Below, piece by piece: positions 381 through 8,243 of a stretch of DNA of 10,206 nucleotides; the stretch's first letter is position 1, and every line of letters begins with the position of its first letter. The notes under the pieces are model-generated. The model did no database searches and was not told the DNA's origin. It saw nothing but the letters and a program-made list of their open reading frames with translations. Both the position numbers and the translations under genes were made by a program. This stretch comes from a virus (taxonomy: Duplodnaviria; Heunggongvirae; Uroviricota; Caudoviricetes): IMG/VR virus record IMGVR_UViG_2713896909_000006; one strand, given 5' to 3'.

Positions 381-872
381 CTATCTGAGTTGAACATCAA
401 TGGAATAAATATCACCACTCTTTATAAATTTAGAATCTGTCCTTTCATCAAAAGATTCAAATGACTGTACCTTTAAAAACTTTTTCATTTTATTTTCAAA
501 AATACTTTCATTAACACCAGTTAAATACTTGAACGCTCTACCAGCAAGGACCTCATTACTTAAATCCATTGTGTTTTTATTGTCTTTGAAAAACCAAACA
601 ATAACCTTTTGTGGGCATGATGGATTATAAACAGATATATAAAACTGCGGCTCATATTTTTCATCAGCGTCATCACTAAGCATTTCTTCAGAAGATAATT
701 CTCTTCTGAATTCATATTGCCGCTTAGTTATTCCTTCATCCTTTATTATCTCTTGCTTAACTGGTGCAATACCTATAGAAGAGATTAATTCTGACTCATT
801 AAAGCTGAACTTACACTCTTCCGCAGCCAAGTTAAAAGATAAAAGTGCAGATATAAAAACAAAGATACGCAT
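381..872 (-). CDS. AT-rich cargo (moron) gene: secreted/periplasmic protein of unknown function
   Basis: Track ORF 381..890; the likely start is the third ATG (872..870) because GAAGGG sits 6 nt upstream of it and the candidate -10 at 908..903 would leave no leader for ATG 890. N-terminus MRIFVFISALLSFNLAA/EEC has the n-, h- and c-regions of a Sec signal peptide; the mature part is about 146 aa with 2 Cys. Sampled 60-nt blocks are 27-32% GC against about 50% in flanking phage genes. I do not recognise the family. Confidence 0.6.
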   Translation of the reverse strand: MRIFVFISALLSFNLAAEECKFSFNESELISSIGIAPVKQEIIKDEGITKRQYEFRRELSSEEMLSDDADEKYEPQFYISVYNPSCPQKVIVWFFKDNKNTMDLSNEVLAGRAFKYLTGVNESIFENKMKKFLKVQSFESFDERTDSKFIKSGDIYSIDVQLR

Positions 873-5229: not shown

Positions 5230-5790
5230 TCAGGAAGGAAGGGTTATTTCGGTGTGATGTTCGATATCGCCGTCAGGCCCGTTACCGGGATCGAGATAAT
5301 CAACATCAATCGCCAGCGTTCGCAGTTCATCCAGACTGTTCAGGTCATCCTGCTGGCGGGTATCGTCTTCGGTCAGCTCGCTGATGACCGAAAAATCGAA
5401 CTGATAAATCAGCTCATGACGATTCAGATCCAGCAGCGTGCCGCCGTCATAGGTAATCGGGTTACCGCACGCTTCCGGGTTCCAGCCCAGCAGAGCCTTA
5501 AAGAGCATCTGCCGGACATCGTCCACCACATCATACGAGGCAAACTGACCGCGCTCATCACGCCCGTTACTCAGTATGACAACCACGGAGAAGCCCTCTT
5601 TCAGCTCCTGCCAGTAGTCGGTCTGGCTTTTGTTTTCTCCCGGAGAGTCATCACCCGGTACCACATACGCCGCCGGGAGTCTCAGCTTTCCGACCTCCGG
5701 CAGATTTTTGAACTGTGCCGCGCCTGCCACCCGGTTTTCAAAATACGGGCAGCGGGCACGCAGCGCAGCAATAACAGGCGTCAGTTTCAT
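5230..5790 (-). CDS. Mu gp37-like tail protein (DUF1834-like; tail terminator/completion candidate)
   Basis: 186-aa acidic ORF between the neck proteins and the sheath, overlapping the upstream stop by 4 nt. Assignment is by position and size in a Mu-like tail module; the family call is from memory only. Confidence 0.5.
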   Translation of the reverse strand: MKLTPVIAALRARCPYFENRVAGAAQFKNLPEVGKLRLPAAYVVPGDDSPGENKSQTDYWQELKEGFSVVVILSNGRDERGQFASYDVVDDVRQMLFKALLGWNPEACGNPITYDGGTLLDLNRHELIYQFDFSVISELTEDDTRQQDDLNSLDELRTLAIDVDYLDPGNGPDGDIEHHTEITLPS

Positions 5791-6230
5791 CTGTGTCGTC
5801 GCTCCGGCTTCAGTGATTTACGCAATTCCCGCGCCAGAAAATACCAGCCGCTGCCACCGGATGCACCACGATGATGACTACGACGACGTTTTGCTCCTCC
5901 CCGGACACCAAAAAACAGAAACGCCGGATAGAAGTCACCAGAGATCATCCGGTTCCCCTTCCCGTTGCGCTGGTTAGGGGCAATGCGTGTCATAAAACCG
6001 GCTCGCTTTTTACTGGCTCTCGGCACCATGTAACCAATCGAACGAGCCAGGCGTCCGGTCTGATAACCGGGGTTTTCACCCGGTGCCGACCGCGCACGGC
6101 GCATCACCAGCCGACGGGCATCACGCATATGACGCTGCCCAATCGTGACAAACGCCCGCCGGACACGGGCGCGGTTAAAGCGCATCTCCGCGGGCTGCTG
6201 AACATCAACGTGAAAAAAGGGAGTCGCCAT
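5787..6230 (-). CDS. Neck/tail-completion protein (HK97 gp10-like or Mu gp36-like)
   Basis: 147-aa very basic ORF (Arg-rich, GENPGYQTGRLARSIGY motif) following the head-closure gene. Position and size fit the HK97 gp10 family; its start overlaps the upstream ORF by 26 nt, so the true start may be an internal Met. Confidence 0.5.
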   Translation of the reverse strand: MATPFFHVDVQQPAEMRFNRARVRRAFVTIGQRHMRDARRLVMRRARSAPGENPGYQTGRLARSIGYMVPRASKKRAGFMTRIAPNQRNGKGNRMISGDFYPAFLFFGVRGGAKRRRSHHRGASGGSGWYFLARELRKSLKPERRHR

Positions 6231-6615
6231 TGCTGCCTCCGTGACTCTGCGTAAATTCGCCCAGTTCCGTACACTCCAGCAGCAGAAAGCGCCGCGCCCC
6301 GTTCAGATCGCGCTGACGTTTCACCCGGTACACACTGTCATCACAGACCACCTCATAATCAGCAGTGATCCCCCGGCGGTAGCGAATGGTGATGTAATGG
6401 GTGATGGCGTCTCCGGTCTGCGCGGTTTCCTGCCAGGTGGTGGCACTGGTCTGGATAACCTTCGCCCATGCCCGGAACGCAACCGGGTATTGAGGCTCCA
6501 CGCCAAAGTTATCCGCGGGCATATCCACCCGCTGGCGGATCAGGACGCGTTTATTCAGTTCGCCGGGGTCCGGCAGAATGTAGGTTGCGCTGGTCTGCGC
6601 CTGACGAATTTTCAT
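6205..6615 (-). CDS. Head closure / head-tail adaptor protein
   Basis: 136-aa ORF after the gp6-like connector with a 4-nt overlap. Central region ...YPVAFRAWAKVIQTSATTWQETAQTGDAITHYITIRYRRGITADYEVVCDDSVYRVKRQRDL... is typical of phage head-tail joining (head closure) proteins. Confidence 0.6.
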   Translation of the reverse strand: MKIRQAQTSATYILPDPGELNKRVLIRQRVDMPADNFGVEPQYPVAFRAWAKVIQTSATTWQETAQTGDAITHYITIRYRRGITADYEVVCDDSVYRVKRQRDLNGARRFLLLECTELGEFTQSHGGSNGDSLFSR

Positions 6616-6935
6616 AGTGGTATAAGGCGATAAGGAACAACCAACCAGTTAAAACTCATTGGCAACTCCATTTTCTCAACGTCTGTAACCGTTGAGCGGT
6701 TTTCGTAGAAATGGCTGACAAGTAGCAGAAGCGCCAGCTTCACATCATCAGATATCACAAGCCCATCAGGATCATCCGCAGGCCTGTCATCTGCGGTTGC
6801 ATACAACTTACGGTTAAGGAAGTTTTCCGTACGACTCTGAGCGGCCTTACCAAGCAGTTCAAGCAACTCATCTTCATCAGAGAAATCATCATCCAGACGG
6901 AGCTGAAGCTTAATCTCTTCCATTTTTAACAGCAT
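6612..6935 (-). CDS. Head-tail connector protein (gp6-like)
   Basis: Track ORF 6612..6980, but the first 15 codons are just the translation of an intergenic hairpin. The likely start is ATG 6935..6933 (MLLKMEEIKLQLRLDDDFSDEDELLELLGKAA...), with GGAGG (6944..6940) 4 nt upstream; this N-terminus matches the gp6-like connector family. Confidence 0.6.
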   Translation of the reverse strand: MLLKMEEIKLQLRLDDDFSDEDELLELLGKAAQSRTENFLNRKLYATADDRPADDPDGLVISDDVKLALLLLVSHFYENRSTVTDVEKMELPMSFNWLVVPYRLIPL

Positions 6936-6944
6936 AAAACCTCC

Positions 6945-6988
6945 TGTGCCCGCCAGAACGCGGGCACAAAAAAACCGCATTACGCGGC
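6945..6988 (-). promoter_or_regulatory. Tandem stem-loops between the major capsid and connector genes (terminator/attenuator or mRNA-stabilising candidates)
   Basis: In minus-strand RNA: hairpin 1 GCCGC-GUAAU-GCGGU (6988..6974, 4 GC pairs plus one G-U) followed by U7 (6974..6968), then hairpin 2 with a perfect 9-bp stem UGUGCCCGC / GCGGGCACA and 6-nt loop (6968..6945), then GGAGG and the connector ATG. Confidence 0.4.
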
Positions 6989-7013
6989 GTGCTGTATTAC
7001 GTAAAAAGACTAA

Positions 7014-8243
7014 TCAACCACCAACGCTACCTTTCCCCACCAGCGCTTTAATGGCAGAGGTGTCTTCCAGGATACAGTCAAAACGATGGAAGGCCAGAAA
7101 ACCGGTCTGATCATATTCCGCGTAACGCTCAACCAGACGTTTAAGAATCATGTATCGCACACGACGGATAATGAAGCGATCAAAGTCACCACAGAACATG
7201 AATTTTTTACCCGCCCCGATATCATCAATTTCCTGATCAATGACATACGGTACATTCAACACTGAAGCAGGTGCCACACCAACAATATCCGGCAACCATA
7301 AAGGGCGTCCCTGACCGTCTTCCATCTCACTGATCAGTTTCAGCGTATTATCGTTAAACGCCAGGCGGAATTTAGGTCCGCGACGATATGCAGGATCAAT
7401 GCTGTGTTTCAGAGCCAGAATTTCCTGCCACTTCACCGCATTTGCCGCGGCAGTCTGTGTTGTGCCGGTCACTGATGCTGCCAGCCCTTTGGGTTGTTTA
7501 GGCGTACCAGCCCCCGTCCCCTGAATCAGATAACGGGCTTCACCACGACCAATACGTTCAGCAATGCGACGGGCAAGATAAGCTTCCATATCGATCGCAC
7601 TGTCCTGCAGCAACTCATTAGACACACGAATTATTTTCGATGTCATTTTGAGCGCCCCAAGGCTTCCCATACCGAAATCGGTGTCTTCTTCACCGGCTTC
7701 TTCATTTTCGCCCAGCAGAACACCAACTTCGGAAGTACCATCAGCTGTTGCCCACTCCATAGTGCGACCGTCAGAAGTGGTAAGAATCTGCGCCACACTG
7801 GCGATGCCACCGTAGGATTTCATCTTCTCAACAACTTTCGCCAGGAATGTTTCTGGTACGGTATATCCGCCCTTTTCATCCTGAGCTACGCCCTGGGCAC
7901 GAAGTTCACGCAACGCCTTTCGTTCTTCTGATGTCAGCTCACTGGCACCGTGACGCATCCACTTATCAAAAACCTGAGCTCGTTTCTCATCCTGTTGCGG
8001 ATTGTTTTCCGGATCAAGATTCTGACGCTGCTCTTCCTCATTGCTTTCAATGTACGCTTGATCCTGACGACGCAGTTCTTCTTCGCGTGCAATTCGTTCA
8101 TCAAGCGCTTCCAGTTCGGATTTTGCTTTGTTCCACTCAGTGCGCTGCTCTTCCGTCCATGCGTTATCACCAATTTTTTCATTCAGGGCGCGCATGTCAG
8201 TTGCGATAGTATTACGTTTCTGTTTCAGTTCATGCAGTTTCAT
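7014..8243 (-). CDS. Major capsid protein, HK97 fold, with N-terminal scaffold-like (delta) domain
   Basis: 409-aa ORF with AAGGA 7 nt upstream of ATG 8243, directly after the protease gene. The first ~110 aa are highly charged and helical (MKLHELKQKRNTIATDMRALNEKIGDNAWTEEQRTEWNKAKSELEALDERIAREEELRRQ...), as in HK97 gp5 delta domains, followed by a capsid-like core. Confidence 0.85.
   Translation of the reverse strand: MKLHELKQKRNTIATDMRALNEKIGDNAWTEEQRTEWNKAKSELEALDERIAREEELRRQDQAYIESNEEEQRQNLDPENNPQQDEKRAQVFDKWMRHGASELTSEERKALRELRAQGVAQDEKGGYTVPETFLAKVVEKMKSYGGIASVAQILTTSDGRTMEWATADGTSEVGVLLGENEEAGEEDTDFGMGSLGALKMTSKIIRVSNELLQDSAIDMEAYLARRIAERIGRGEARYLIQGTGAGTPKQPKGLAASVTGTTQTAAANAVKWQEILALKHSIDPAYRRGPKFRLAFNDNTLKLISEMEDGQGRPLWLPDIVGVAPASVLNVPYVIDQEIDDIGAGKKFMFCGDFDRFIIRRVRYMILKRLVERYAEYDQTGFLAFHRFDCILEDTSAIKALVGKGSVGG

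What the first reader, a model, noticed from the sequence alone, without database searches (positions are those of the whole stretch)
6936..7013. Two consecutive stem-loops directly after the major capsid gene
Seen: 24 nt after the capsid stop the minus-strand RNA can form a short GC hairpin followed by U7, then immediately a perfect 9-bp GC-rich hairpin, then GGAGG and the connector start. Established: hairpin plus U-tract is the intrinsic-terminator signature, and partial terminators or 3' stabilising hairpins after highly expressed capsid genes are a common way to set capsid-to-minor-protein ratios. Inference: an attenuator or decay barrier giving the capsid mRNA a higher steady-state level than the downstream neck and tail genes. 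The track's 45-nt 5' extension of the connector ORF (6936..6980) is the translation of these hairpins and is probably not coding.
Basis: partly seen in the sequence, partly recalled or inferred. Interest (0 to 1): 0.4.

Follow-up and report, generated by a model that had tools for sequence, protein, structure and literature searches.

The report
Terminator-like hairpin pair after capsid gene
The two RNA hairpins after the capsid gene are real and conserved, but this is an ordinary post-capsid terminator/stabiliser site that the public record of phage SfV, 99.5% identical to this window over the 801 bases compared, already marks as a putative terminator.

Summary
The window is 99.5% identical to Shigella/E. 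coli phage SfV over the 801 bases compared. The 78-nt capsid–connector spacer (6936..7013, minus strand) holds:
- hairpin 1 (6974..6988), with 4 G-C pairs plus one G·U;
- a U7 tract (6968..6974);
- hairpin 2 (6945..6968), with 9 bp;
- AGGAGG (6940..6945) and the connector ATG (6933..6935).

The spacer folds far better than shuffled sequence (z about -3.8 to -4.3). The design recurs in 27 distinct relatives and occurs once in the SfV genome.

That ATG lies in the loop of hairpin 1 and is absent in most relatives. Near-identical relatives also differ by single-T indels in the T tract.

The functional reading (partial termination, 3' decay barrier) is plausible but untested. It is not new: the SfV record annotates a 'putative rho-independent terminator' here, although its coordinates cover hairpin 2, not the conserved hairpin 1 plus T tract. 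SfV encodes a Q antiterminator, so post-transcriptional roles may matter more than termination. These include exonuclease blocking and masking of the ribosome-binding site by U-tract:AGGAGG pairing. Interest is low.

The parts
7014..8243 (-). Major capsid protein gene (409 aa, HK97-type); stop TGA at 7014..7016
   Evidence: ORF list. Pfam Phage_capsid E 7e-65. Annotated as capsid in SfV, SKA5 and RefSeq.
6989..7013 (-). 25-nt unstructured spacer between the capsid stop and hairpin 1
   Evidence: Sequence. Unpaired in the fold of the spacer alone. Highly variable among relatives. Long enough for hairpin 1 to lie outside a terminating ribosome's footprint (inference).
6974..6988 (-). Hairpin 1: GCCGC-GUAAU-GCGGU (4 G-C pairs plus G·U), about -7.5 kcal/mol
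   Evidence: The CCGC/GCGG core is almost invariant in 27 relatives, while loops vary (GTAAT, GTTAA, GTAA, GAAA, TCCG, CCGA and others). No compensatory changes were seen.
6968..6974 (-). U7 tract directly after hairpin 1; together they form the conserved intrinsic-terminator signature
   Evidence: The tract is T6-T8 in every relative spacer examined.
6945..6968 (-). Hairpin 2: U-GUGCCCGC-GUUCUG-GCGGGCAC-A (8 G/C-rich pairs plus U-A), -18.8 kcal/mol for the 8-bp stem
   Evidence: Three of its pairs show changes on both sides in relatives: G-C/A-U, U-A/U·G/C-G and C-G/A-U. This is essentially what the SfV record marks as a putative terminator (5547-5584 = window 6931..6968).
6940..6973 (-). Extended helix in the predicted minimum-energy fold: U tract (6968..6973) paired with AGGAGG (6940..6945), stacked on hairpin 2
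   Evidence: Model pairing probability for AGGA at 37 C is at least 0.97. The added stability is only about 2-4 kcal/mol. The same masking is predicted in most relatives. In silico only.
6940..6945 (-). Shine-Dalgarno AGGAGG of the connector gene, abutting the 3' arm of hairpin 2
   Evidence: Sequence. A purine-rich RBS at 0-2 nt from hairpin 2 is present in all relatives.
6612..6935 (-). Head-tail connector (gp6-like adaptor) gene, 107 aa, true start ATG 6933..6935
   Evidence: Pfam Phage_connect_1. SfV orf6 and the PGAP WP_000924829.1 coordinates. Relatives' N-termini begin MLLK/MLLS/MLLT.
6936..6980 (-). 45-nt 'extension' of the mechanical ORF 6612..6980; non-coding (it is the translation of the hairpins)
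   Evidence: One search lists the long ORF. The ATG is missing in most relatives and single-T indels occur in the T tract. Only the SKA5 record annotates the long form.

Best explanation
The spacer is a conserved RNA punctuation element between the head module and the neck/tail module of an SfV-type temperate phage.

Hairpin 1 plus U7 is a weak intrinsic terminator. Polymerases that are not Q-modified, or are no longer Q-modified, release the transcript around 6968.

Most late-operon polymerases are expected to read through. In that read-through RNA the hairpins persist as structures. Hairpin 2, much the more stable of the two, blocks 3'-to-5' exonucleases once the downstream RNA is cut. The capsid segment therefore outlives the neck/tail segment. 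Hairpin 2 extended by U-tract:AGGAGG pairing also partly hides the connector ribosome-binding site.

The net effect is more capsid protein than connector and downstream proteins.

Shown: the sequence anatomy, the folding excess, conservation, single-copy status and the correct gene start.
Inferred: termination, stabilisation and translational damping.
For: - Folding excess: z -3.8 to -4.3.
- Both hairpins are listed by the terminator scan.
- The layout hairpin 1, T6-8, hairpin 2, RBS is kept in 27 distinct spacers. Their flanking genes are only 50-80% identical, and the spacer is often more conserved than the coding flanks.
- 96.5% of pair cells are standard pairs, against 31-52% when partners are slid. 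Three pairs in hairpin 2 show changes on both sides.
- The covariance model finds one hit in the whole SfV genome, and the site is the only terminator annotated inside the 17.7-kb structural operon.
- More distant capsid homologues also carry a hairpin directly after the capsid stop. Dickeya Sucellus has a hairpin plus T7, then the RBS. Ralstonia phages and Burkholderia KS9 have a GC hairpin without a T tract.
- The SfV authors annotated a putative terminator here.
- A terminator right after the capsid gene is described for T7-like phages (PMC10134795) and at the end of the P22/L procapsid module (PMC8022706).
- SD masking is predicted with P at least 0.97 at 37 C, and is largely lost (SD bases 66-98% unpaired) when the U tract is replaced.
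Against: - No transcript, 3'-end or protein data were available.
- SfV encodes Q and Q-type upstream terminators, so termination at hairpin 1 may be minor during lytic growth.
- Hairpin 1 is weak (-7.5 kcal/mol), is not better than shuffles on its own, and shows no compensatory changes.
- In prophages L005-L009 the capsid stop codon lies in the loop of hairpin 1, so a terminating ribosome would cover it. L008 and L009 also have a mismatch in the stem.
- The U-tract:SD helix adds only about 2-4 kcal/mol. Any U run will pair with any purine-rich RBS placed symmetrically around a hairpin, so the pairing may be a by-product.
- The stem cores are invariant at the sequence level. That could reflect recombinational homogenisation at a module junction rather than selection on RNA structure.
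Confidence: 0.55

Rival explanations
1. Insulator against non-antiterminated transcription. The hairpin 1 plus U7 terminator stops spurious or leaky transcripts made by unmodified host polymerase, for example in the lysogen. Q-modified polymerase ignores it, so it does not set capsid:neck ratios during lytic growth.
For: SfV has Q and a lambda-like late layout. This possibility is stated explicitly for the analogous terminator in phage L/P22 (PMC8022706). The T tract is strictly conserved.
Against: It does not explain hairpin 2 or its fixed position against the RBS. It gives no obvious reason to place an insulator after the capsid gene rather than at the operon start. High-GC relatives keep a hairpin without any T tract.
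Confidence: 0.15
2. Hairpin 2 is mainly a translational control device for the connector gene. The terminator's U tract acts as a fourU-type anti-Shine-Dalgarno clamped by a stable GC stem. Alternatively, the U tract acts as a single-stranded standby/S1 site. Either way, it tunes connector synthesis, possibly with temperature.
For: The minimum-energy fold pairs U6 with AGGAGG. Pairing probability is at least 0.97 and is largely lost (SD bases 66-98% unpaired) when the U tract is replaced. The RBS abuts hairpin 2 in all relatives and is predicted to be mostly paired. In L005-L009 hairpin 1 is compromised while the T tract and hairpin 2 are intact. FourU thermometers pair four U with AGGA (PMC3185406).
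Against: The extra stability is only 2-4 kcal/mol. In the model AGGA stays paired up to 50 C, so no physiological switch is predicted. In some relatives the RBS instead pairs with CUCCU in the early coding region. There was no Rfam match to FourU or any other family. The pairing is an expected by-product of the geometry.
Confidence: 0.15
3. Tandem terminators: both hairpins terminate. Hairpin 2, extended by U:AGGAGG pairs, is followed by UUUUAUGCUGUU and acts as a second, back-up terminator. This is in effect what the SfV record annotates.
For: The top hit of the terminator scan is the 14-pair extended hairpin followed by TTTTATGCTG. The SfV feature 5547-5584 covers it. Unrelated phage contigs show true tandem terminators with a second T run, for example L111 and L134.
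Against: The U-rich tail after hairpin 2 is not conserved: relatives have AAAAUAUG, AUCCUAUG or UCUUAAUG. Six purines separate the solid stem from the U run. Termination there would also cut off the connector RBS region, although the connector gene is needed.
Confidence: 0.08
4. No RNA function of its own. The conserved GC-rich inverted repeats and T tract persist because the spacer is a homologous-recombination joint between head and neck modules, or are left over from duplication of a terminator hairpin.
For: Three different exchange breakpoints map inside the spacer: window/L004, L004/L217 and L217/L081. The stem cores are conserved as sequence rather than by covariation. The two hairpins share the CCGC...GCGG core.
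Against: Loops and flanks diverge freely while stems, the T tract and RBS adjacency are kept. Compensatory changes occur at the ends of hairpin 2. Unrelated capsid lineages independently place a hairpin at the same spot.
Confidence: 0.07

Closest known systems
The 'putative rho-independent terminator' annotated between orf5 (capsid) and orf6 in the phage SfV record U82619.2 / NC_003444.1
   Same: It is the same locus. The window is 99.5% identical over the 801 bases compared, and the feature 5547-5584 maps to window 6931..6968.
   Different: The annotated span is hairpin 2 plus AGGAGGTTTTATGCT. The element conserved across relatives as a canonical terminator is the unannotated hairpin 1 plus T7 just upstream. 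The function was never tested, as far as the record shows. The original paper could not be read.
Intra-operon terminator at the end of the procapsid module of P22-like phages (phage L), and the T7-type terminator immediately after the major capsid gene
   Same: A terminator-like hairpin sits directly after the capsid gene inside a single late transcription unit. It is proposed to lower mRNA for downstream genes (PMC8022706; PMC10134795).
   Different: T7-like phages use their own polymerase and a strong terminator. In SfV the host polymerase is presumably Q-modified and hairpin 1 is weak. The roles of such terminators in lambdoid late operons are stated to be unknown.
Intercistronic stem-loops that give differential segment stability in polycistronic mRNAs (malE-malF REP, puf and pap operons; my own knowledge, not checked here)
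   Same: A very stable GC hairpin (hairpin 2, about -19 kcal/mol) at the 3' end of the highly expressed upstream cistron is the kind of structure that blocks PNPase and RNase II.
   Different: It is not a member of a repeated family. There is one copy per phage genome and a median of one per E. coli genome that has it. No decay data exist.
FourU-type RNA thermometers
   Same: A run of U pairs with the AGGA of the Shine-Dalgarno sequence in a hairpin in the 5' leader of the regulated gene (PMC3185406).
   Different: Here the U run is also the terminator's U tract and is stacked on an 8-9 bp GC stem. No melting is predicted in the physiological range and there is no Rfam hit. This is a resemblance only.

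Membership tests
Intrinsic (Rho-independent) terminator: hairpin 1 + U7 | G+C-rich stem-loop with a short loop (3-8 nt) | tested here: met
   CCGC/GCGG plus G·U, a 5-nt loop and -7.5 kcal/mol. This is at the weak end of the range and is not better than shuffles on its own.
Intrinsic (Rho-independent) terminator: hairpin 1 + U7 | Run of U directly (0-2 nt) after the stem | tested here: met
   U7 abuts the stem. The tract is T6-T8 in all relatives.
Intrinsic (Rho-independent) terminator: hairpin 1 + U7 | Located after a stop codon on the coding strand, clear of the terminating ribosome | tested here: met
   It starts 25 nt after the TGA. This is not met in L005-L009, where the stop codon lies in the loop.
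Intrinsic (Rho-independent) terminator: hairpin 1 + U7 | Transcript release or 3' ends at the U tract | not testable with these tools
   Needs Term-seq, 3' RACE or in vitro transcription.
Intrinsic terminator: hairpin 2 (as annotated in the SfV record) | Run of U directly after the stem | tested here: not met
   AGGAGG separates the 9-bp stem from UUUU. Adjacency holds only if six U:A and U·G pairs extend the stem, and the U-rich tail is absent in relatives (AAAAU, AUCCU, UCUUA).
FourU RNA thermometer | At least 4 consecutive U paired with AGGA of the SD in a leader hairpin | tested here: met
   Predicted only: P(paired) at least 0.97 at 37 C.
FourU RNA thermometer | Melting of the SD helix across the physiological temperature range | tested here: inconclusive
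   In the model AGGA stays at least 84% paired at 50 C, and only the last G opens. Thermodynamic models are a poor guide here.
FourU RNA thermometer | Match to the curated family model | tested here: not met
   No FourU or other meaningful Rfam hit at E up to 10. The best match was isrK at 12.4 bits against a threshold of 50.
REP/BIME-type extragenic palindromes | Many dispersed copies per genome | tested here: not met
   There is one covariance-model hit in the SfV genome. E. coli genomes that have the element carry a median of one place, always between the capsid and connector genes.
Protein-coding N-terminal extension of the connector (MRFFCARVLAGTGGF) | Start codon and reading frame conserved in relatives | tested here: not met
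   The ATG is absent in most relatives and there are single-T indels between near-identical spacers. The Pfam profile starts at the short N-terminus.

The most novel reading that the evidence does not exclude
The terminator's own U tract is used a second time as a fourU-like anti-Shine-Dalgarno strand, clamped by hairpin 2. Transcripts that escape termination would then be throttled at translation of the connector gene, a two-level gate built from one T run. In addition, the sequence 'T7-RTGCCCGC' after terminator hairpins is a recurrent, so far unexplained design in many unrelated phages. It gives at least 120 hits in at least 49 unrelated contexts, against 17 hits for each of two composition-matched controls.
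Probability: 0.15. Interest if true: 0.45.

Novelty: already known. Interest (0 to 1): 0.2.

Why it matters
How phages with one long, antiterminated late transcript make hundreds of capsid subunits for every dozen connector subunits is only partly understood. The role of terminator-like hairpins inside such operons is explicitly described as unknown (PMC8022706).

This site is a clean, single-copy, well-conserved example with useful natural variants:
- T6, T7 and T8 tracts;
- hairpin 1 inside or outside the coding region;
- hairpin 2 with or without a U-rich tail.

It would make a convenient test case. By itself it changes nothing. It refines an annotation by identifying which hairpin is the conserved terminator, and it corrects one over-long gene call in phage SKA5.

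Tried and rejected
- Rfam at a permissive threshold over 6700..7300 found nothing meaningful. This gives no support for a known sRNA, a thermometer or a put-like antitermination RNA.
- The SfV genome paper could not be retrieved by DOI, PMC id or PubMed id.
- The scan of genome contigs with the connector protein gave only 4 loci, none with the tandem design.
- A plain MAFFT alignment misaligned hairpin 2 where loop lengths differ, so RNAalifold recovered only hairpin 1. I therefore used a covariance-model alignment, which leans towards the modelled structure.
- In the window, the minimum-energy fold pairs the start-codon region with sequence 5' of hairpin 1. This is not reproduced in relatives, so I dropped it.
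- A mini-ORF starting at the RTG after the T tract has inconsistent frames and stops in relatives and in unrelated hits, so I rejected it.
- I tested a general rule that a copy of the terminator's 5' arm follows the T tract, using unbiased terminator samples. It was not supported. CCCGC follows 2-7% of terminators, and the downstream sequence does not track the arm sequence.
- A terminator for the opposite strand is rejected: on the plus strand hairpin 2 is followed by A7, not U.
- No promoter-like site lies in the spacer.

Full report
**What is there.** All genes in the window lie on the minus strand: portal, prohead protease, major capsid (7014..8243), a gp6-like head-tail connector, head closure protein, tail terminator, sheath and tube. 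The 801 bases around the finding are 99.5% identical to Shigella/E. coli phage SfV and 98.6% identical to phage SKA5. A 271-base query across the junction matches 331 of 5426 complete E. coli genomes, with a median of one place per genome.

After the capsid stop (TGA, 7014..7016) the RNA has these features in order:
- 25 unstructured nt;
- hairpin 1, GCCGC-GUAAU-GCGGU (6974..6988);
- U7 (6968..6974);
- hairpin 2, GUGCCCGC-GUUCUG-GCGGGCAC, which is 9 bp with the flanking U-A pair (6945..6968);
- AGGAGG (6940..6945), UUUU, then AUG (6933..6935).

**Is it more than chance?** The 78-nt spacer folds at -30.3 kcal/mol against -19.9 +/- 2.8 for dinucleotide shuffles (z -3.76, 0 of 200). A 101-nt context gives z -4.34. 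Hairpin 2 alone gives z -2.86. Hairpin 1 alone is unremarkable (z -1.49). The consensus terminator scan has no discriminating power by count (13 found, 10.1 expected), but its top hit and another hit are these two hairpins.

Comparison with relatives is the stronger test. I collected spacers from three sources:
- diverged E. coli prophages;
- IMG/VR contigs encoding capsids 90-100% identical;
- contigs found by a DNA pattern.

Every one of the 27 distinct spacers upstream of a gp6-like connector (26 of them relatives of the window) keeps the same order: hairpin 1, T6-8, hairpin 2, then a purine-rich ribosome-binding site touching hairpin 2. Hairpin 1 ranges from -5.0 to -10.3 kcal/mol (-7.4 or better in all but L009) and hairpin 2 from -15 to -24 kcal/mol. 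Loops and flanks vary freely, while the stems and the T tract are nearly invariant.

On a covariance-model alignment, 96.5% of pair cells are standard pairs, against 31-52% when partners are slid. Three pairs, all in hairpin 2, change on both sides: G-C/A-U, U-A/U·G/C-G and C-G/A-U. Hairpin 1 shows none (this alignment leans towards the model). The model hits the SfV genome exactly once.

An unbiased look at more distant capsid homologues gave the following:
- Klebsiella phage Kp4872-1 and Escherichia phage Evi (about 70% capsid identity) have the tandem design.
- Dickeya phage Sucellus has a single hairpin plus T7, followed directly by the RBS.
- Ralstonia phages and Burkholderia KS9 have a single GC hairpin with no T tract.
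- One phage has nothing.

A hairpin right after this capsid gene is therefore common. The tandem form is an enterobacterial variant.

**The gene start.** The mechanical ORF 6612..6980 starts at an ATG inside the loop and 3' arm of hairpin 1. Several lines of evidence show that the extension 6936..6980 is not coding:
- Most relatives have loops without an ATG.
- Near-identical spacers differ by a single T in the T tract (L075/L082, L005/L007, L008/L009), which a coding region would not tolerate.
- The Pfam connector profile begins at the short N-terminus.
- AGGAGG sits 4 nt before the ATG at 6935.
- Both the SfV record and PGAP use that start.

Only the SKA5 record uses the long form.

**What is already known.** The SfV record annotates a 'putative rho-independent terminator' at 5547-5584, which maps to window 6931..6968. 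That span is hairpin 2 plus AGGAGGTTTTATGCT. It is the only terminator annotated inside the 17.7-kb structural operon. The record also annotates a Q antiterminator with terminators downstream of it.

Comparison shows that the canonical, conserved terminator signature is the unannotated hairpin 1 plus T tract. The U-rich tail after hairpin 2 is not kept in relatives (AAAAUAUG, AUCCUAUG, UCUUAAUG).

The general phenomenon is described in the literature:
- A strong terminator lies immediately after the capsid gene in T7-like phages (PMC10134795).
- A putative terminator lies at the end of the procapsid module inside the single late operon of P22/L. [quoted passage not shown] They suggest either partial termination or a block to non-antiterminated transcription (PMC8022706).

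**How it most likely works.** Late polymerases in a Q-type phage are expected to resist terminators (PMC3851460; PMC8022706). Hairpin 1 is also weak. I therefore think termination at U7 is partial at most and applies mainly to unmodified polymerase.

The element probably acts largely after transcription, in two ways.
- Hairpin 2 is a good barrier to 3' exonucleases. It would stabilise the capsid segment once the RNA is cut downstream. The A/U-rich stretch around the start codon and the U tract resemble RNase E targets (my own knowledge, not tested).
- In the predicted fold the U tract pairs with AGGAGG on top of hairpin 2. Pairing probability is at least 0.97 at 37 C and is largely lost (SD bases 66-98% unpaired) when the U tract is replaced. 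The extra stability is about 2-4 kcal/mol, which would modestly lower connector translation.

Both effects push in the direction the virion needs: far more capsid than connector. All of this is inference; no transcript or protein data could be consulted.

Points against this reading are the lack of covariation in hairpin 1 and the L005-L009 prophages, where the capsid stop lies in the loop of hairpin 1. The U:SD pairing is also an almost unavoidable by-product of the geometry.

**Rivals.** I considered four alternatives:
- an insulator against spurious transcription in the lysogen;
- a mainly translational device, either fourU-like (PMC3185406) or a standby site (PMC5934652);
- true tandem terminators;
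- a recombination joint with no RNA function.

The last draws on a real observation, because exchange breakpoints fall inside the spacer:
- Window vs L004: capsid 3' end 66% identical, connector 97%.
- L004 vs Evi: 99% and 61%.
- Evi vs L081: 68% capsid, 93% hairpin 2, 97% connector.

**A side observation.** The string GG-T7-RTGCCCGC occurs in at least 120 IMG/VR stretches (the scan was truncated). These give 107 distinct contexts in at least 49 flank clusters, and 97% follow a terminator-grade hairpin. Two composition-matched controls each give 17 stretches.

The representative non-SfV hits I checked lie before scaffold-like, major-tail-like or other genes, none after a recognisable capsid gene. 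Fewer than half have a partner for a second hairpin. A simple rule that the terminator's arm is repeated after the T tract failed on unbiased terminator samples. I leave this unexplained.

**Verdict.** The feature itself is an ordinary, already annotated post-capsid terminator/stabiliser. The small refinements are the identification of the conserved terminator hairpin, the possible RBS masking and the module-junction role. Novelty: already known. Interest: 0.2.

Noticed in passing
window 6933..7013, compared with L004, L081, L217: The capsid-connector spacer is a mosaic junction. Window vs L004 is 66% identical in the capsid 3' end but 97% in the connector. L004 vs phage Evi is 99% and 61%. 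Evi vs L081 is 68% in the capsid, 93% in hairpin 2 and 97% in the connector. At least three exchange breakpoints therefore fall inside the spacer.
   Followed up: partly
IMG/VR loci L095-L214 (pattern hits); controls L224-L257: GG-T7-RTGCCCGC after terminator hairpins is about 3-7 times more frequent than composition-matched controls: at least 120 vs 17 and 17 stretches, and at least 49 vs 7 and 15 unrelated contexts. It occurs in many phages unrelated to SfV. GCCCGC there is often not the arm of a second hairpin. The cause is unknown.
   Followed up: partly
L002 1921..2289 (phage SKA5, OR670062.1): The SKA5 record annotates the over-long 122-aa ORF, which starts in the loop of hairpin 1, and names it 'DNA packaging'. 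SfV and PGAP use the 107-aa connector.
   Followed up: yes
window 6205..6615 (-); SfV orf7 6014..6310: The head closure gene starts with an ATGA overlap on the connector stop (6612..6615) and encodes 136 aa, in both the ORF list and PGAP. The SfV record's orf7 starts 111 nt further in and looks truncated at its 5' end.
   Followed up: no
L005-L009 about 596..656 (E. coli prophages with a 45-46-nt spacer): In this lineage the capsid ORF runs into hairpin 1. Its stop codon TAA is in the loop, the 5' arm is coding, and L008/L009 carry CCAC instead of CCGC. The T tract, hairpin 2 and the RBS are intact. These are natural variants for separating the roles of the two hairpins.
   Followed up: partly
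L215 (SfV) 5547..5584 = window 6931..6968: The terminator feature in the SfV record covers hairpin 2 and the connector RBS and start, not the conserved hairpin 1 plus T7 at 5527..5547 (window 6968..6988).
   Followed up: yes
window 6940..6988: The two hairpins share the same core (CCGC...GCGG). The 3' arm of hairpin 1 could therefore also pair with the 5' arm of hairpin 2, with the U tract as the loop. This may be a trace of a terminator duplication. No function is evident, because that pairing can form only after the termination decision.
   Followed up: no
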